Source: Escherichia phage vB_EcoS_UALMA_PCEc3. Taken from it: a stretch of 44,679 nucleotides of DNA. Numbering within the stretch: the first letter of the stretch is position 1; each line of letters opens with the position of its first letter. The position numbers and the translations under genes are program-made. Positions 2,853 through 44,679 of this stretch are shown here, piece after piece. The notes under the pieces were generated by a model. That model was not told where the DNA came from. It saw only the letters and a program-made list of their open reading frames with translations, and did no database searches. The stretch lies in sequence record PQ314493; one strand, given 5' to 3'.

Positions 2853-2929
2853 GCTCTGCTAGCTCAACAGGACAGCAGCAACGACCTTCTAAGTCGTAGG
2901 TTACTGGTTCGAATCCAGTGCGGAGCGCC
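2853..2929 (+). tRNA. tRNA-Arg (anticodon TCT)
   Basis: 7-bp acceptor stem GCTCTGC/GCGGAGC, U8, D-loop with GG, anticodon stem acgac/gtcgt with loop cTTCTaa, T-arm actgg-TTCGAAT-ccagt, discriminator G and encoded CCA. Confidence 0.8.
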
Positions 2930-2936
2930 AAATTAA

Positions 2937-38659: not shown

Positions 38660-39024
38660 TAATGTGCGCAGCTTTATCTGGGTGCTCAGCAACCTCTGCT
38701 CTGACAGGATTAATTGGCAGTAAGCCAGAGATTAGCGCTCAAGCTGGTGCAGAAAACAATAAGGTTGGTGTTGGTTTAACGAACAGGGTTGACTCAAGTA
38801 ACTCCAGCGATGCCACAGTTAAGGATTCCAGCGTGGGCTCACTGGATAGTTCTAGCGGGAAAAAGACTGCTGATAATTCGATTAAGGCCTCTACAATCAC
38901 TGCCGAAAAGATTGAGATTACCAATAACGACTCATCAGCGCTTCCGTGGATTGGAACAGGAGCGATGGGTTTGCTGGTTATGATTCTCCTTGCCTTAATC
39001 TTAAGACGTAAAAAAGCCTCCTAA
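38635..39024 (+). CDS. unimolecular spanin (T1 gp11-like)
   Basis: lipobox LSGC near N-terminus plus C-terminal transmembrane helix followed by RRKKAS. Confidence 0.65.
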   Translation: MFKRIAALVMCAALSGCSATSALTGLIGSKPEISAQAGAENNKVGVGLTNRVDSSNSSDATVKDSSVGSLDSSSGKKTADNSIKASTITAEKIEITNNDSSALPWIGTGAMGLLVMILLALILRRKKAS

Positions 39025-39038
39025 TGGAGGCTATATTT

Positions 39039-39374
39039 TTAGCTAAATAACTCTTCGTCAGTCATTGTCCCTATGTTCATCATCTCTTTTATGTACTGGC
39101 TTTCATACCCGTTAAGCGCCTCAAAGTTGAAACCAAATGGCCTCTTCAAGCTACCCTTACTAACAAACTCACCGCACTTGCCATCAATGTATCCGGCACT
39201 CAACATCTTTGCGCAGAACTCCTTTGAAGCTGCGATGCAAAAATCTCGATGCGATAACCCCGCCGCCTTACTGAATCTCTGAGAGTCCTTATGCTTGTAG
39301 ATGAATCGCGCCAAATGCTGGCGCGTGAAGTATGAATACGACTCACAGAAGCGGTATAAATCCAAAATAAACAT
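39039..39374 (-). CDS. hypothetical protein (111 aa)
   Basis: ORF from track, last gene of minus-strand operon. Confidence 0.4.
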   Translation of the reverse strand: MFILDLYRFCESYSYFTRQHLARFIYKHKDSQRFSKAAGLSHRDFCIAASKEFCAKMLSAGYIDGKCGEFVSKGSLKRPFGFNFEALNGYESQYIKEMMNIGTMTDEELFS

Positions 39375-39462
39375 TTCAACCTCAAGGTAGCGTGATTGCT
39401 AAAATGTATGGCCCAAAAACCAAGCAGAGAGCAATAAAAACCCACAAATATTCATTCATAAA

Positions 39463-41046
39463 TCACCCCAGCAATCTCGGATTAATGTAAACTTTATCAC
39501 CAATCAGGCACGTATAGTTTTTCTCATCAAGCATTGGCAGTAGGTGATCTTTAATCTTCGTCATTACTCCAGCCTGAGCCTCGAATGGCTTAACCTTTCG
39601 CGCCGCTTCATACAATGAGCGAATGCCAACAACACCCTTACCGTTTTTACCCTGCTTGATCAGGATATCAATCAGCTTATTCATCTCGGCATTGTCGCCA
39701 GCGTGACCAGCCGCGTTGGCAGATGACAGATAAGTCTTGCTAAGTTCCTGGAACATGATTACAGCTTCCTGCATGGTGTCGAGTTCAATTTCTCTGGACT
39801 TCTGCGGGCTACCGCCGTTAGGGTTGAACCAGTTACGAACAGTATGGAGAACCGCCGCAATCCTGATTGCCTGTTTATCGAACTTACCAAGCGCGCCGCG
39901 CAACATTGTGTGTGAATACTTACCGCCGTCAGCAAGGTGCGGCTCCATTTCCTGACGCGCTCTGTTGAGGTATTTCATTGCCGAGTTACTCACTGTCAAT
40001 TTTACATCTTGCTCATTCATTATTTCGTGAACAAGACGGAAGTAGTCAGCCTTCAGGCAACCATCAATTGGCTCATACGTTGATTCGCCATTTTCATCAA
40101 CGAATACACGCTCACCCAAGAATGACTTTTCACGCACAAGCAGGAAGCGCTCCGATACACCGATACCACGTGCGCCAGCATTCATGATTGCATTGATTGT
40201 TTCATCCTGCGCAATTACCGATATGCAACCCATAGCAACGAAGCTCATGTTGTTCTCTGCGTTCGCACGCGCAATAGATACGTTACCAGCATCCCACGCT
40301 TTAAGCACAAGTTCGCTGTTCGTCTTCTTCGAGCCGTCACCGTAAGTCATTCCCAATAGTGAGTTAACACTCGTTGCCTCATCAGAGATGACCGCGAAGT
40401 TGCCCTGACGGTTGTTTATTCGTGCAAGACCTTCCGGTGTGGTATCTGATACCGGGAATACGATATCGCACAGTTTCTCGAGCTTCTCCTCTAACTCCTC
40501 TTTCTCCTCAAAAAGTGAGGCCATCTCTGATGGTGACTTTTCCTGTTTCATCTCTTTTGATAATGCAGACAGCTTTGCCATAATCTTTTTGCGCTCACGC
40601 TTCCGCACTTCATTAAGCCGCTCAGTCTCAGCGATCATTGGAGCAATTGAGAGCGAGTTAATTGCTGATTTACCTGTCGATGGCGGCTGGCTTGTTACGA
40701 CGTATAGCGAAGTCGGTTGCTGGGTTCCGTGATACTCTACTGTAAAACGTCCCAGCATGGCGGCAGAAATACACCCCATAAAGTGCATATAAGCTGAAGA
40801 CTCTGGAAATTGGACAGAACGGGCAATATTGGCTGACAGCTTACCAACAACATCAATGTCATTACCGAGTGAGATTACGGGATACTTGTCATTAGCCGCA
40901 TCAATCTCGACTGGTGCTTTCCAGAATGATTGAGACTGGCGATAGCCATTGGCATTAATGGCGACTCGCAGTGGCGGGAGGTTGTCTGCGGCAGCAATTG
41001 CCATAACCTGTTCAACAGATAGTTTATCTTCGTTGAAATCAAACAT
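39463..41046 (-). CDS. P-loop NTPase-like protein (deviant Walker A PSTGKS, Walker B VISDE); long paralogue
   Basis: 527 aa; N-terminal ~45 aa and C-terminal ~70 aa homologous to ORF 43459..43983. Confidence 0.55.
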   Translation of the reverse strand: MFDFNEDKLSVEQVMAIAAADNLPPLRVAINANGYRQSQSFWKAPVEIDAANDKYPVISLGNDIDVVGKLSANIARSVQFPESSAYMHFMGCISAAMLGRFTVEYHGTQQPTSLYVVTSQPPSTGKSAINSLSIAPMIAETERLNEVRKRERKKIMAKLSALSKEMKQEKSPSEMASLFEEKEELEEKLEKLCDIVFPVSDTTPEGLARINNRQGNFAVISDEATSVNSLLGMTYGDGSKKTNSELVLKAWDAGNVSIARANAENNMSFVAMGCISVIAQDETINAIMNAGARGIGVSERFLLVREKSFLGERVFVDENGESTYEPIDGCLKADYFRLVHEIMNEQDVKLTVSNSAMKYLNRARQEMEPHLADGGKYSHTMLRGALGKFDKQAIRIAAVLHTVRNWFNPNGGSPQKSREIELDTMQEAVIMFQELSKTYLSSANAAGHAGDNAEMNKLIDILIKQGKNGKGVVGIRSLYEAARKVKPFEAQAGVMTKIKDHLLPMLDEKNYTCLIGDKVYINPRLLG

Positions 41047-41101
41047 TACTTCTCTCCGTGTTGTTTCTGAGCGGCCATTATATCAACGACCGCTTATAAT
41101 T

Positions 41102-41122
41102 CATTATCAATTTGTGCTATTT
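41102..41122 (-). promoter_or_regulatory. box variant (minus orientation) upstream of NTPase-like gene
   Basis: minus-sense aaatagcacaaattgataa. Confidence 0.45.
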
Positions 41123-41471
41123 ACAGGTACTGGGCCTCAAAATGGTACGTCTGGCAAAGAGTGTAAAATCCAACATCCTCGCTACGGTAGAGCTGCCAGG
41201 CATTACCATCCTCATCGTAAATGTAACCAGCGGATTGACCTAGTCCAGCGTGAAGGTTAACCTGGTAACGTTTCTCTTCTTTAAAGTCTTTTTTAACTCC
41301 TGATTTATGGTTAACCTTAGTACAGTAAATAGTTTTGGTCTTAATGTATTTGCCGCGCTCTTCCAGGTTAATCCATTTGCCATCTTTCTTGATTTGTTCT
41401 ACACCATCTTTAACTCGAGCTTTGTATAATACGTTATCGTTGCTAATGAAGTTTTTAGTAATCGTTGTCAT
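41121..41471 (-). CDS. hypothetical Lys-rich protein (116 aa)
   Basis: ORF from track; stop overlaps box copy. Confidence 0.45.
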   Translation of the reverse strand: MTTITKNFISNDNVLYKARVKDGVEQIKKDGKWINLEERGKYIKTKTIYCTKVNHKSGVKKDFKEEKRYQVNLHAGLGQSAGYIYDEDGNAWQLYRSEDVGFYTLCQTYHFEAQYL

Positions 41472-41532
41472 TTTGTTTGCCTTTTTGTGTTTCGTTTCGA
41501 TGAGATGAATATACAGGAAAAGCCCCGAAGGG

Positions 41533-41553
41533 CTTTAGCAATTCGTGCTATTG
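41533..41553 (-). promoter_or_regulatory. palindromic box copy (minus orientation) followed by hairpin and conserved leader
   Basis: minus-sense aatagcacgaattgctaaag then gcccttcggggc then ctcatcgaaacgaaac. Confidence 0.5.
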
Positions 41554-41696
41554 CGGGCTTTTTCTATCGCCTTAAGCATAATTTCATGACTCTCCAGCAA
41601 GTCTTCGCGAAACCAATCACCGCAAGGCCAGCCCTTTCCGCTATAGGCACTTATGACCTCAAGATCGAAATAATTTATCTCAGATGGTAGAAGCAT
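41535..41696 (-). CDS. small protein (53 aa) ending NSTNC
   Basis: short ORF whose last codons are the box; not in track. Confidence 0.25.
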   Translation of the reverse strand: MLLPSEINYFDLEVISAYSGKGWPCGDWFREDLLESHEIMLKAIEKARNSTNC

Positions 41697-41698
41697 CA

Positions 41699-41935
41699 CT
41701 ACACCTCGTCAAAAGTTGCAATTCCAGGAATAAACATTCCAACCTTCCAGCCTGCAATGGAAATCCATCCAGAATTGTGCTTGTGCGGTCGCTCAGCGCC
41801 ATTAATCACCCACTCGTTCGGGATTGTCTTCCCGTTAATGATTAGTGGCTCAGCGTCGTATACATAGCCTTTTACGAATGGCGTTAAGACTTTCTTGTCG
41901 GTACTGGTGATGCAATTAGTGCAGCGAATTTTCAT
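41699..41935 (-). CDS. hypothetical protein (78 aa)
   Basis: ORF from track. Confidence 0.4.
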   Translation of the reverse strand: MKIRCTNCITSTDKKVLTPFVKGYVYDAEPLIINGKTIPNEWVINGAERPHKHNSGWISIAGWKVGMFIPGIATFDEV

Positions 41936-42120
41936 ATTTGAACCTCGACCTCATCCTCGAAAACTGTAGCTGGCTTACCAACTGAGTTAATAATGTCAAA
42001 TGATTTAAGTTCAGTATCCCTATCAACAACATCGTAGACCTTGCCAATGAAAAGGCCATAATCAATTTCATCTGACCCGTCCATGTCAATATCTTTAAAC
42101 TTAACTAACTTGATTTTCAT
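41932..42120 (-). CDS. hypothetical protein (62 aa)
   Basis: ORF from track, coupled to neighbours. Confidence 0.4.
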   Translation of the reverse strand: MKIKLVKFKDIDMDGSDEIDYGLFIGKVYDVVDRDTELKSFDIINSVGKPATVFEDEVEVQI

Positions 42121-42130
42121 ATCTCAATCC

Positions 42131-42310
42131 TCAAACAAATGGCAGGCATTCTGCGCAGCCAAGTCCATCGCAGCACAGGAATTCATCTTCTGACTGGAAT
42201 TGCCTGGCAATGTCAATATCAATCTTGTCGAGCAGAACAAGTGCGGTGTAAATCTCATTCAACCCAATCAGTGCGCATTCGTGGCGTAACTCGTCTTTAT
42301 CAATCTTCAT
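42131..42310 (-). CDS. small Cys-rich protein (59 aa, C-terminal CCDGLGCAEC)
   Basis: short ORF, first gene of minus-strand operon downstream of operator-like array; not in track. Confidence 0.3.
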   Translation of the reverse strand: MKIDKDELRHECALIGLNEIYTALVLLDKIDIDIARQFQSEDEFLCCDGLGCAECLPFV

Positions 42311-42399
42311 ATCTATCTCCTCGTTTTGATGAGTTAACTATATCCTCCATGACCCCCAATGTCTTTAGCAAAAAGTGCTACTCGTTAGATTTATGTATT

Positions 42400-42462
42400 G
42401 TTGCAGATATTGCAATGATTCACATGATTATTGCACATATGGCAATATTGCTTCAGATGCAA
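42400..42462. promoter_or_regulatory. array of operator-like palindromes (TTGCA/ATTGC half-sites)
   Basis: TTGCAgatatTGCAA (42400-42414), ATTGCacatatgGCAAT (42429-42445), ATTGCttcagatGCAAT (42446-42462). Confidence 0.45.
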
Positions 42463-42659
42463 TGATGTTTTTGATTGTTGCGAAAAGTGAAATGAAGTGG
42501 TGAGTGAGTGAATGAAAGATGGATGGACTACCATACAAGTTGATTTTGATTCCCGCTGAGCCATTTCTAAGCTGACACGTAACGCCTGTAGCGCGATGTA
42601 AGCCAATGCCTATCGTTACGCTAGTTACGCGAAGCTACGCCCAGACTTACACTATAAGT

Positions 42660-42885
42660 GCCTAATATATATATATATCTTCTTTCTATTATTATTATTA
42701 TTATTAATATTATTGTATGTAAGTCATGTAACAGGGGTCCTGGCGATATCTATATGTTTTTTCCTATCAGTTATAGCCGAGGCTATAATTTAGGGTATGG
42801 TGGGGGTGTTTTGGGGATGTTTGCCTCGTTACACGCACGACACGCTACTCACATTGAGCTATAGCTGGGCTGGCATGCCATTTCG
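42660..42885. repeat. AT-rich intergenic repeat region B (paralogous to 24300-24530)
   Basis: shared acattgagctatagctgggc block and (tta)n tract; multiple cgtaacg/gttacgc copies nearby. Confidence 0.5.
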
Positions 42886-42979
42886 CGTAACGACCCCCAA
42901 AAGTTACCAAGAATTACACTTGACTACACGTGTAAGTCGGGATATTATGGACTCAACTTAAACGAGAGGAGTGATAGAG

Positions 42980-43459
42980 ATGAGCGAGAAGGTAACATTA
43001 GGCCAAGTGATTCGTGAGATGGTAAAAGCAGCGCTTAAGTCTGAGGATAAGCAGATCAGCGTGACACTCAACAAGATTGAGAGCCTTATTGGTGCCGAAG
43101 ATGGTGGCCTACACAAGCTTAAGAGCTCATACATCTATAATACAACGGCTCGCATGCCTGAGTTGAGAGATGCAGGACTGAAGGCAACTCACCATTATGA
43201 TGAGGATGAGGGTGATAGTGAGTTTGGTGAAACCACTCTGGCTGGAGACAAGAAGCTGGTTATTAAGCTTATTCCCGGCACGGCAAACATTGGAATCAGA
43301 AAGAAGACCAACGACGCGGTCAAGGATGAGGCAATCACTGAGTTCAAGGCCAGGATCTGCAAGTTGATGCCAGACCTATCTGAGTATGAGGGTGAAGCGC
43401 TTGCAGCCGCTATGAAGGCCATTAAGGATTACCGTTTAATTATTGAGGAGATTAAGTAA
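42980..43459 (+). CDS. hypothetical protein
   Basis: track ORF 42971..43459; ATG 42980 after RBS gagagga. Confidence 0.45.
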   Translation: MSEKVTLGQVIREMVKAALKSEDKQISVTLNKIESLIGAEDGGLHKLKSSYIYNTTARMPELRDAGLKATHHYDEDEGDSEFGETTLAGDKKLVIKLIPGTANIGIRKKTNDAVKDEAITEFKARICKLMPDLSEYEGEALAAAMKAIKDYRLIIEEIK

Positions 43460-43983
43460 TGTTTGACTTTAACGAGGATAAACTGACAGAAGAGCAGGTA
43501 ATAGAGATAGCCAAGCAAGATGGAATGCCTCCGCTGCGAATTGCAATCAATGCTAACGGGTATCGACAGTCAACGGCGTTTTGGGGCTCGATTGATATCT
43601 CAGAGGTGTATAGTGGTGATGAGCTTGGTGTACTGATTAAAATCATCAGGAAGATAGGAGTTAACGGCAAAGTAGTTGTCGGCATCAGATCTCTATATGA
43701 AGGCGCTCGCAAGTTAAAGCCATTTGCTGGGCGCGATGGAATGATGCTAGTGATCAAGGACAAGCTAATTCCAGAGCTCGATAAGATGAATGTTACCTGT
43801 CTAATTGGAGATAAGGTTTACTTCAACCCCTCCTTGACGGATTTAAGCTGGCAACCAAACTTCAAAACTTGCGAAGGTGAGCATGTTAGTAGACTACCAT
43901 ACCACTTGCGGTACAGAGAGGAAGAGGTGGAGATGGCGATTGAGTTCCACCGGAAAGCTAAACCACTCCTGAACGGTGAATAG
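43459..43983 (+). CDS. short paralogue of the P-loop NTPase-like protein (lacks NTPase core)
   Basis: MFDFNEDKL...INANGYRQS N-terminus and VVGIRSLYE...TCLIGDKVY C-terminal block shared with 39463..41046. Confidence 0.55.
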   Translation: MFDFNEDKLTEEQVIEIAKQDGMPPLRIAINANGYRQSTAFWGSIDISEVYSGDELGVLIKIIRKIGVNGKVVVGIRSLYEGARKLKPFAGRDGMMLVIKDKLIPELDKMNVTCLIGDKVYFNPSLTDLSWQPNFKTCEGEHVSRLPYHLRYREEEVEMAIEFHRKAKPLLNGE

Positions 43984-43998
43984 CACGGATTGCTAAAC
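43978..43998 (+). promoter_or_regulatory. palindromic box copy; -10 TATAAT 44018-44023
   Basis: gaatagcacggattgctaaac; contains TAG stop of short paralogue. Confidence 0.6.
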
Positions 43999-44047
43999 AA
44001 TGGATCGGGTAGTCAGCTATAATTACCACATCGACAACAAAGAGGAA

Positions 44048-44254
44048 ATGAAGATGAAAACTATGATTATCGAAGATTTCTCAGGTGACATCACTGAGGT
44101 GTCTGCTTCAGTATATTACGACGGCATCGTGAGCATTGACATTGACACGGATAACTTAGGCGATGAAATTACTATGTCTCACTATACACCAGAGCAAGCG
44201 CGCAAACTGGCGGCGGCATTAATCATGGCGGCGGAAGAGTCAGAGAAGCAATGA
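44048..44254 (+). CDS. hypothetical protein
   Basis: track ORF 44000..44254; likely ATG 44048 after cassette leader and RBS agaggaa. Confidence 0.4.
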   Translation: MKMKTMIIEDFSGDITEVSASVYYDGIVSIDIDTDNLGDEITMSHYTPEQARKLAAALIMAAEESEKQ

Positions 44255-44267
44255 ATGAGAAATTATA

Positions 44268-44486
44268 ATGCAAGTATATACGAATAGTAATGGCGTCGAG
44301 TATTGTGTTGTTTACGGAGTGGTTCTTCGCACTGTTGGTGGCCTCGGGATCATCAACATTTCAGTGATCAAGCCTGAATTACTGGTGAAAGGAATCCAGG
44401 CCGGAATCTTCAGCTTTCACTCAACGCTGACGGCTAAGCAGTATGTTACCCTCGCCAACGCGGTTAAGTACGGTTTTATCAAATAG
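44268..44486 (+). CDS. hypothetical protein (72 aa)
   Basis: ORF from track; TAG stop inside box copy. Confidence 0.4.
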   Translation: MQVYTNSNGVEYCVVYGVVLRTVGGLGIINISVIKPELLVKGIQAGIFSFHSTLTAKQYVTLANAVKYGFIK

Positions 44487-44501
44487 CACTTTTTGTTAAA
44501 A
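44481..44501 (+). promoter_or_regulatory. degenerate box variant
   Basis: aaatagcactttttgttaaaa. Confidence 0.4.
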
Positions 44502-44679
44502 AGGGGATTCATCCTGACTGGTGTAATCCCCACATCAACCAAACAAATGGAAGTTAAGTGACCATATACGAACATAAATTCATCAGTAGGGGTATTGATA
44601 TGCTCCTGCACTATTTAGACGAAAAATACGCAAATCTAATACTTAAGACGCATGGCGGCACAATAACGAGGATTGAGAT

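What the first reader, a model, noticed from the sequence alone, without database searches (positions are those of the whole stretch)
39463..43983. Long/short paralogue pair on opposite strands: P-loop NTPase-like protein versus a copy lacking the NTPase core, forming inverted homologous arms around a 2.4-kb segment
ORF 39463..41046 (minus, 527 aa) and ORF 43459..43983 (plus, 174 aa) share an N-terminus (MFDFNEDKL(S/T)xEQV...PPLR(V/I)AINANGYRQS..FW) and a C-terminal block (GKxVVGIRSLYExARK(V/L)KPF...TCLIGDKVY(I/F)NP), with clear similarity at the DNA level too. The long form carries ~370 aa in between with a deviant Walker A (SQPPSTGKSA) and a Walker B-like FAVISDEA; the short form has a ~15-aa linker instead. 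The homologous gene ends are inverted relative to each other and bracket ~41047-43458, which holds the operator-like array, the AT-rich repeat region B and divergent promoters. This could be a domain insertion/deletion pair (for example an ATPase and its ATPase-less regulator or decoy), and the inverted arms could in principle mediate segment inversion. I could not assign a function.
Basis: partly seen in the sequence, partly recalled or inferred. Interest (0 to 1): 0.8.

Follow-up and report, generated by a model that had tools for sequence, protein, structure and literature searches.

The report
Helicase and its motor-less paralogue
A T1-like phage carries an MCM-type replicative helicase and, 2.4 kb away on the other strand, an old copy of that gene that has lost the whole ATPase motor but keeps both end domains and follows the helicase's own sequence changes, so it is probably a mimic that modulates helicase function and not a DNA inversion switch.

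Summary
ORF 39463-41046(-) (527 aa) and ORF 43459-43983(+) (174 aa) share an N block (E 6e-21) and a C block (E 3e-27).

The short protein is the same gene with codons ~50-447 removed almost seamlessly.

The short form occurs only in the Braunvirinae and Rogunavirinae, always as the second gene of the rightward early operon. It is under purifying selection (omega ~0.2, against ~0.015 for the helicase). In the one lineage with a diverged helicase it carries that helicase's lineage-specific residues (13 sites against 0), encoded by different codons.

Inversion is not supported. The DNA arms are 66-68% identical, the longest shared word is 10 nt, and 0 of 478 matching phage records contain the predicted inversion junction.

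The most likely function is a non-essential mimic or competitor of the helicase's terminal domains. That function is inferred, not shown.

The parts
39463..41046 (-). Long paralogue: a 527-aa DUF3987 / SF6 (MCM-like) helicase
40900..41046 (-). Helicase N-terminal block (aa 1-49): a three-helix domain (H11-21, H25-33, H36-41) shared with the short form
   Evidence: hhalign 99.1%, E 4.5e-19.
40666..40689 (-). Walker A, QPPSTGKS (aa 120-127)
   Evidence: Q120, P121, P122, S123, G125 and K126 are invariant in 27 homologues.
40378..40398 (-). Walker B, FAVISDE (aa 217-223)
   Evidence: F217, S221 and E223 are invariant.
40144..40155 (-). SERF motif (aa 298-301), a candidate MCM-type SRF arginine finger
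   Evidence: E299 and R300 are invariant. The assignment to the MCM SRFD motif is my inference from knowledge of MCM.
39469..39705 (-). Helicase C-terminal winged helix (aa 448-526), net charge +4, shared with the short form
   Evidence: Secondary structure is H451-468, E472-474, H475-482, H494-508, E512-515, E518-521. hhalign gives 99.5% and E 1e-22.
43459..43983 (+). Short paralogue: 174 aa, PHROG 7327, unknown function, no ATPase core
   Evidence: The AF2 model has pLDDT 73.9 and residues 10-125 are confident.
43459..43605 (+). Short-form N block (aa 1-49), with the same three helices as the helicase
43609..43836 (+). Short-form winged helix (aa 51-126), net charge +5
43837..43980 (+). Short-form-specific tail (aa 127-174): a disordered linker followed by an amphipathic helix at aa 154-171
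   Evidence: The tail is conserved across short forms down to 22-40% identity. It has no other copy in the genome.
42980..43459 (+). DUF7174 gene. Its TAA stop overlaps the ATG of the short form, which suggests translational coupling.
   Evidence: Pfam PF23796, E 1.7e-47. The same gene pair is present in every relative examined.
42920..42948 (+). Predicted rightward sigma-70 promoter (TTGACT-17-TATTAT) serving DUF7174 and the short form
   Evidence: The sequence is conserved in the alignment.
42337..42365 (-). Predicted leftward promoter (AAGACA-17-TATAGT) heading the operon that ends with the helicase
42366..42919 (.). Non-coding control region between the divergent promoters. It holds a TTGCAAT/ATTGCA repeat array (42397-42495), YTACRC hexamers, and the invariant AT tract at 42660-42712.

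Best explanation
What is shown, or close to shown:
- The long gene encodes the phage's MCM-like (SF6, DUF3987) helicase. It has a small acidic N-terminal three-helix domain, an AAA+ motor and a basic C-terminal winged helix.
- The short gene arose from it by duplication. The copy included at least 5 nt of leader (AAGTA before the ATG). An in-frame deletion then removed codons ~50-447, and a 48-aa tail was gained.
- The short protein has no nucleotide-binding residues, so it cannot be a motor.
- The short gene is the second gene of the rightward early operon and is probably translationally coupled to DUF7174.

What is inferred: the short protein acts as a mimic of the helicase's terminal domains. 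It would bind whatever those domains bind, which could be origin or other DNA through the basic winged helix, a partner protein, or the helicase's own ATPase body. In doing so it would modulate helicase loading or replication initiation, most simply by competition. It is accessory rather than essential.

The inverted arrangement is a consequence of the two genes lying in divergent operons. It is not a recombination device.

For: Common origin of the pair: E 6e-21 and 3e-27, identical secondary-structure elements in both models, and leader homology in repeat I1.

Functional retention of the short form:
- 260 clusters at 90% identity match it, the 120 listed being mostly ~174 aa.
- Omega is 0.17-0.33, against 0.012-0.03 for the helicase.
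- Identical peptide motifs in the two paralogues are encoded by mostly different codons.

The short form follows its own helicase. In contig L018 the helicase is 82.5% identical to the window's. At 13 of 36 helicase-variable module sites both short forms carry their own helicase's residue, and at 0 sites the pattern is crossed. Identity of the L018 short form to its own helicase is 52%, against 43-44% to foreign helicases.

Accessory status: only 108 of 768 matching phage records carry a full-length short form. Tempevirinae, which have DUF7174, lack it.

The winged helix carries net positive charge in all short forms (+2 to +8) and all helicases (+1 to +8).

Precedent for the domain's role: in SaPI Rep helicases the C-terminal winged helix binds origin iterons that flank an AT-rich region (PMC9371898).
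Against: - There is no direct evidence of any binding partner or of any effect on replication.
- The co-variation rests on one independent lineage contrast (L018 against the rest). Ancient gene-conversion tracts could produce it without any functional coupling.
- The short form evolves 15-25 times faster in dN than the near-invariant helicase module. That is unexpected if both contact exactly the same conserved ligand.
- Several lineages carry in-frame stop codons in the short gene, so it can be truncated or lost.
- I could not obtain model coordinates. Whether the N domain and the winged helix contact each other or the motor is unknown.
- The YTACRC hexamer repeats near the AT tract vary between lineages whose helicase winged helices are nearly identical. 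This argues against those hexamers being the helicase winged helix's site.
Confidence: 0.5

Rival explanations
1. Positive origin factor. The short protein, alone or with DUF7174, binds the repeat and AT-rich region between the divergent promoters and recruits or loads the helicase through homotypic contacts. It would work like an initiator or loader, not a competitor.
Against: Most Drexlerviridae have the same helicase and no short form, so it cannot be a required loader. The winged-helix matches are generic. IME253 keeps the hexamers although its DUF7174 is only 37% identical. The repeats overlap promoters and may be transcriptional operators.
Confidence: 0.2
2. Neofunctionalised accessory gene. 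In this reading the helicase-derived scaffold now serves host takeover, anti-defence (a decoy for a host sensor that recognises the helicase ends) or exclusion of competing phages. It would not serve the phage's own replication control.
For: The gene lies in the early accessory-gene region. It evolves fast (omega ~0.2, dN 15-25 times that of the helicase). It is clade-restricted. It has gained a conserved new tail. Nonsense variants recur, as is often seen for genes that are costly on some hosts. Following the helicase's residues is what a decoy would need to do.
Against: It matches no known defence or anti-defence family (PADLOC, NCBIfam and Pfam are all negative). No host partner is known. 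The evidence is purely circumstantial.
Confidence: 0.2
3. Decaying relic of a duplication, with no function.
For: In-frame stops occur in DTL, 2005III and OzMSK. The gene is absent from most of the family.
Against: Omega is 0.17-0.33 over saturated dS. The architecture and tail are conserved down to 22-40% identity. Identical motifs are kept with different codons. The tail downstream of the TAG stop still shows 5 synonymous and 0 non-synonymous changes between DTL and the P0068 lineage.
Confidence: 0.04
4. The inverted homologous arms mediate inversion of 41047-43458, swapping which operon each paralogue belongs to.
For: The geometry fits: there are inverted homologous gene ends, including a 58-nt stretch at 76% identity (I1).
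Against: The arms are 66-68% identical and the longest exact word is 10 nt. dS between the arms is saturated. The record annotates no invertase or integrase. All of the 30 best megablast records are collinear on one strand. Synteny is identical in the window and eight other genomes and contigs. The synthetic inversion junction is spanned in 0 of 478 records.
Confidence: 0.01

Closest known systems
DUF3987 / superfamily 6 (MCM-like) helicases of phages and mobile elements (Kazlauskas et al. 2016, PMC4889955; AgaPH, PMC11724360)
   Same: The long ORF is a member. It has the Pfam hit, Walker A and B motifs, an MCM-like AAA+ fold and a C-terminal winged helix.
   Different: It is not fused to or adjacent to a primase; the primase lies about 17 kb away. 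It has its own small N-terminal three-helix domain. No core-less paralogue is mentioned in the DUF3987 text I read in PMC4889955 and PMC11724360.
[not shown]
   Same: Both are AAA+ helicases whose C-terminal winged helix does something other than motor work. In SaPI that job is binding iterons around an AT-rich tract.
   Different: There is no demonstrated origin here. The candidate repeats lie 1.3-1.9 kb from the helicase gene rather than immediately downstream. SaPIs have no separate motor-less copy.
Truncated co-products of replication initiators: HSV-1 UL9/OBPC, f1 gene II/gene X, phiX174 A/A*, T7 gp4A/4B (from my own knowledge, not checked in the library)
   Same: In each case a shorter protein shares the initiator's or helicase's binding domain, lacks part of the enzyme, and in the first three cases is thought to modulate replication.
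   Different: Those are nested in-frame products of one gene and identical in sequence to the parent. Here the short form is a separate, anciently diverged gene on the other strand. It keeps both termini, lacks the middle, and has gained a new tail.
Winged-helix domains of MCM and Orc1/Cdc6
   Different: Sequence identity is 6-15%. Matches to kleisin, Stn1, cullin and transcription-factor winged helices are equally good, so no specific function can be transferred.

Membership tests
DUF3987 / SF6 MCM-like helicase (long ORF) | Match to PF13148 above the gathering score | tested here: met
   141.1 bits against a cut-off of 27, covering aa 81-430.
DUF3987 / SF6 MCM-like helicase (long ORF) | [quoted passage not shown] | tested here: met
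   PPSTGKS at aa 121-127 and FAVISDE at aa 217-223. Walker A, S221 and E223 are invariant in 27 homologues.
DUF3987 / SF6 MCM-like helicase (long ORF) | MCM-type AAA+ fold | tested here: met
   [not shown]
DUF3987 / SF6 MCM-like helicase (long ORF) | [quoted passage not shown] | tested here: met
   H-S-H-H-S-S topology at aa 451-521. Winged-helix matches appear.
DUF3987 / SF6 MCM-like helicase (long ORF) | Hexamer formation and ATP-dependent DNA unwinding | not testable with these tools
   This needs biochemistry.
DUF3987 / SF6 MCM-like helicase (short ORF) | Possession of the AAA+ core and nucleotide-binding motifs | tested here: not met
   There is no Pfam hit. The alignment covers only long-form residues 1-~49 and 448-526. 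The short form is a derivative of a family member, not a helicase.
Winged-helix DNA-binding proteins (short ORF aa 51-126) | Winged-helix fold | tested here: met
   [not shown]
Winged-helix DNA-binding proteins (short ORF aa 51-126) | Sequence-specific DNA binding | not testable with these tools
   The only indirect evidence is net charge: +5 here and +2 to +8 across the family.
Invertible DNA segment / recombination switch | Inverted repeats similar enough for recombination, or recombinase target sites together with an invertase gene | tested here: not met
   The arms are 66-68% identical and the longest exact word is 10 nt. No invertase or integrase is annotated.
Invertible DNA segment / recombination switch | Both orientations found among related genomes | tested here: not met
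   0 of 478 records span the synthetic inversion junction. All fetched relatives are collinear.
Truncated regulator isoforms of replication initiators (OBPC, gene X, A*) | Produced from an internal in-frame start of the same gene | tested here: not met
   It is a separate gene on the opposite strand, 2.4 kb away, and dS between the copies is saturated.
Truncated regulator isoforms of replication initiators (OBPC, gene X, A*) | Shares the parent's binding domain and modulates replication | tested here: inconclusive
   Domain sharing is shown. An effect on replication is not testable here.
Self-loading initiator helicase with adjacent iteron origin (SaPI Rep type) | Iterons flanking an AT-rich tract next to the helicase gene, bound by its winged helix | tested here: inconclusive
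   A repeat array, hexamers and an AT tract exist at 42366-42919. However, the hexamers vary between lineages with a constant helicase winged helix, and they overlap promoters. Binding was not tested.

The most novel reading that the evidence does not exclude
The short protein is a dedicated molecular decoy or poison built from the two ends of the phage's own MCM-like helicase, kept matched to that helicase by selection. It would either shield the helicase from a host factor or defence sensor that recognises those ends, or cap or poison helicase rings (its own, for timing, or those of co-infecting relatives). In some lineages it would be made in two sizes, 140 and 174 aa, by read-through of an in-frame TAG or TGA placed at the linker-tail boundary.
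Probability: 0.12. Interest if true: 0.8.

Novelty: new variant of a known kind. Interest (0 to 1): 0.5.

Why it matters
Replication initiation in T1-like phages is essentially uncharacterised. They have no polymerase of their own, and one re-annotation study found no origin-like iterons in TLS, a member of the group (PMC11447400). A naturally occurring motor-less copy of the helicase that keeps both appendage domains offers a handle on what those domains bind and on how an MCM-like phage helicase is loaded or restrained. The pair is also a clean example of a gene evolving by excision of its catalytic core, where the derivative stays under selection and stays matched to its parent. This can be tested directly in a tractable E. 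coli phage such as Bas01 (AugustePiccard).

Tried and rejected
- Inversion hypothesis: rejected.
- Recent gene conversion between the paralogues: rejected. The L018 pair is only 68% identical over 119 nt, and identical peptides use different codons.
- Phylogeny of the shared module. A small NJ tree showed monophyletic short forms sister to the Braunvirinae/Rogunavirinae helicases. With more divergent short forms and bootstrapping this collapsed: short-form monophyly 4/200, and short forms plus Braunvirinae/Rogunavirinae helicases 66/200. I therefore infer single origin from the shared deletion junction, shared tail and shared genomic position, not from the tree.
- Origin of the tail. tblastn against the whole genome found nothing. 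The best hhalign match is helicase helix 420-432 at E 0.15-0.3, which is not significant.
- DUF7174 as a fragment of the deleted core: no similarity. It also has no PDB relatives.
- Sequence searches of the PDB with both family profiles found nothing.
- NCBIfam and PADLOC gave no meaningful hits.
- The exhaustive profile search of 1.84 billion representatives found no distant motor-less analogues outside this clade. It returned 48 hits, all short forms, fragments or Drexlerviridae-type helicases.
- Fold search against AFDB50 was unavailable. BFVD returned only family members and helicase fragments.
- Literature searches for DUF7174 and for this pair found nothing.
I could not measure contacts between the N domain, the winged helix and the motor.


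Full report
**Identity of the window.** The region 39000-44679 is 100% identical to 'Pseudomonas phage PsgS01F' (PP134917.1, 44,679 bp). The window is a rotated reverse complement of that record. Every other relative is an Escherichia, Shigella or Klebsiella phage of the family Drexlerviridae (T1-like). The closest are Braunvirinae: AugustePiccard/Bas01, DTL, BEK and the vB_EcoS series.

**The observation.** Both ORFs exist as described.
- BLASTP aligns long 1-73 with short 1-69 (53% identity, E 6e-21), and long 448-525 with short 51-126 (62% identity, E 3e-27).
- Profile-profile comparison gives 99.1% and 99.5% probability for the two blocks.
- At DNA level the blocks are only 68% (113 nt) and 66% (167 nt) identical.
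- The homology runs a few bases into the leader (AAGTA before the ATG, I1), so the duplication included the translation start region.
- The two blocks meet at about residue 50 of the short form. There is no real linker, and roughly codons 50-447 of the helicase are missing.

**What the long protein is.**
- It matches Pfam DUF3987 (141 bits, cut-off 27) and PHROG 2373 'DNA helicase'.
- An AlphaFold2 model built on 27 homologues is confident (pLDDT 89.9, pTM 0.87).
- Walker A (PPSTGKS), Walker B (FAVISDE) and a SERF motif (E299 and R300 invariant) are conserved across the family. I read SERF as the MCM-type arginine finger; that is an inference.
- This agrees with published work. DUF3987 proteins are divergent superfamily 6 helicases, distantly related to MCM, with a C-terminal winged helix (PMC4889955). 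A PriCT-DUF3987 protein unwinds DNA in a Walker A/B-dependent way (PMC11724360).
- The shared blocks lie outside the motor. One is a three-helix N-terminal domain (H11-21, H25-33, H36-41). The other is a C-terminal winged helix (H451-468, E472-474, H475-482, H494-508, E512-515, E518-521).

**What the short protein is.**
- Its model (pLDDT 73.9; residues 10-125 above ~80) has exactly the same elements: three N-terminal helices, then a canonical winged helix (H55-68, E73-75, H76-83, H95-109, E113-116, E119-122). A low-confidence linker follows, then a helix at 154-171.
- The winged helix is basic in every short form (+2 to +8) and every helicase (+1 to +8) examined, and the N domain is mostly neutral to acidic.
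- The protein has no nucleotide-binding residues and no Pfam, NCBIfam or PADLOC match.

**Distribution and origin.**
- tblastn finds the short protein's two blocks in 768 phage records, but only 108 carry a full-length short form. The remainder match only through their helicase.
- The carriers sampled are Braunvirinae (Rtpvirus, Veterinaerplatzvirus, Loudonvirus) and Rogunavirinae (Jk06, e4/1c). These two subfamilies form one of the two major clades of the family (PMC8594841, S1 Fig legend).
- An exhaustive profile search of 1.84 billion representative proteins found only 48 hits. About ten are 164-185-aa short-form clusters, and the rest are fragments or helicases.
- All short forms, down to 22-40% identity, share the same junction and the same tail helix.
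- In every genome or contig I fetched that includes the upstream flank (two are too short to show it), the short gene sits directly after a DUF7174 gene, with its ATG overlapping that gene's stop. Where the contig reaches that far, the helicase lies on the other strand beyond a set of small genes.
- Tempevirinae have DUF7174 at the same place but no short form.
- I conclude that the short form arose once, in the Braunvirinae/Rogunavirinae ancestor, by duplication and core deletion. A tree of the 126 shared columns does not resolve this.

**Selection.**
- Between orthologues the helicase has omega 0.012-0.03. The short form has omega 0.17-0.33, with dN 15-25 times higher than the helicase.
- The short form is therefore a functional gene that evolves fast.
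- Between the paralogues dS is saturated. Identical peptide motifs (AINANGYRQS, VVGIRSLYE, TCLIGDKVY) are encoded by mostly different codons.

**Co-variation.**
- Most carriers have nearly identical helicase end domains, so they are uninformative on this point.
- Metagenomic contig L018 has the same gene order, a helicase 82.5% identical to the window's (dS 2.5), and a short form only 41% identical.
- At the 36 module sites where the two helicases differ, both short forms carry the residue of their own helicase at 13 sites: N5E, D21Q, P24S, Y35M, Q37Y, N69A, V73F, G75S, I76L, D108E, T113V, L115M and K119R. At no site is the pattern crossed.
- The L018 short form is 52% identical to its own helicase module and 43-44% to the others. 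The other short forms show the reverse preference.
- The DNA of the L018 pair is only 68% identical over 119 nt, and synonymous codons differ in 7 of 9 codons of AGKGFVSLR.
- This is therefore not recent gene conversion. It is either ancient conversion whose products have since been held by selection, or protein-level co-evolution. Either way the short form is constrained to resemble its resident helicase.
- This is one lineage contrast only, so it needs replication.

**Inversion.** I find no support for it.
- The arms are too diverged for homologous recombination; the longest exact shared word between the two genes is 10 nt.
- No invertase or integrase is annotated.
- The 30 best megablast records are collinear on one strand.
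- A synthetic query joining the helicase 5' region to the reverse complement of the DUF7174 gene, which is the junction an inversion would create, is not spanned in any of 478 matching records.

**Mechanism.**
- What is shown: the short protein is the helicase's two appendage domains without the motor, plus a new tail. It is accessory, selected, and matched to the helicase.
- What is inferred: it binds what those domains bind and so modulates helicase function. Competition is the simplest mode.
- A positive origin-factor role and a role in host interaction or as a decoy are live rivals.
- The 550-bp non-coding region between the divergent promoters contains a conserved TTGCAAT/ATTGCA array, locally enriched YTACRC hexamers and an invariant AT tract. 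It is a reasonable origin or operator candidate.
- However, the hexamers vary between lineages whose helicase winged helices are the same.

**Novelty.** The helicase belongs to a known family. In the literature library and protein-family databases available to me, the motor-less paralogue appears only as a PHROG of unknown function. Shorter proteins that share a domain with a replication initiator are known (OBPC, gene X, A*; from my own knowledge), but they are nested products of one gene. A separate, anciently diverged gene that keeps both ends, lacks the middle, has gained a tail and follows its parent is a new variant of that theme.

Noticed in passing
L011 5672-6196 (DTL); L012-L016 1501-2025; L006 6001-6525 (vB_EcoS-2005III); L007 1093-1635 (OzMSK): Several relatives have in-frame stop codons in the short gene, yet the downstream tail stays in frame and conserved. 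DTL and a metagenomic lineage seen on at least 24 contigs share a TAG at codon 141. 2005III has a TGA at the adjacent codon. OzMSK has two in-frame stops. Between DTL and the metagenomic lineage, the 26-codon tail core after the TAG shows 5 synonymous and 0 non-synonymous differences. This hints at read-through or suppression rather than decay.
   Followed up: partly
window, 19 sites including 41104-41119(-), 41535-41550(-), 42365-42380(-), 43981-43996(+), 44484-44499(+): The motif TAGCACNNNTTGNTAA occurs 19 times genome-wide against 0.24 expected. At the sites where I checked the flanking genes it is co-oriented with them. One copy lies 58 nt upstream of the helicase ATG and is followed by TGATATAAT. 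Another overlaps the TAG stop of the short gene. In these two copies TATAAT lies 22 nt after the TTGNTA element. This looks like a phage-specific promoter or regulator site.
   Followed up: partly
window 42366-42919: A large non-coding region lies between the divergent promoters. It holds a TTGCAAT/ATTGCA repeat array (42397-42495) conserved across genera. It has nine YTACRC hexamers in 400 bp, the genome maximum, against a background of 2.1 per kb. Its AT tract TATATATAT...TATTATTATTATTAT (42660-42712) is invariant in six phages. The hexamers are present in AugustePiccard, DTL and IME253 but not in 2005III, e4/1c or Jk06. This is a candidate origin or operator region.
   Followed up: partly
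window 42391-42606(-), 42658-42864(+), 42855-42962(+): Small ORFs listed or annotated inside the control region overlap conserved non-coding repeats and the AT tract. Relatives have about 700 bp of intergenic sequence here. These ORFs are probably not genes.
   Followed up: partly
whole window (record PP134917.1): The record names Pseudomonas syringae pv. garcae as host. The genome is 84-88% identical over this region to E. coli Braunvirinae, and all 135 other matching records are enterobacterial phages. The host label deserves checking.
   Followed up: no
window 2853-2930: ARAGORN finds only tRNA-Arg(tct). The adjacent 99-nt 'tRNA-Ile' annotated in the record was not detected.
   Followed up: partly
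window 40474-40671 (helicase aa 126-191): The helicase model has a long charged helical hairpin (H126-166, H172-191) inserted directly after Walker A. It gives a weak spurious hit to SMC/JetC coiled coils. Its role is unknown.
   Followed up: no
window 42980-43459 and homologues: DUF7174 evolves very fast. It is 88% identical in AugustePiccard, 35-37% in IME253 and 2005III, and gives no BLAST hit to the L018 copy. Even so, it always immediately precedes the short form with overlapping stop and start codons. It occurs in 164 phage records, more than carry the short form. It may be a partner of the short protein.
   Followed up: partly
L003 1428-3019 (Jk06): The Jk06 helicase is annotated as several overlapping fragments. 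Frameshifts are the likely cause. Similar split helicase fragments of other phages appear in BFVD.
   Followed up: no
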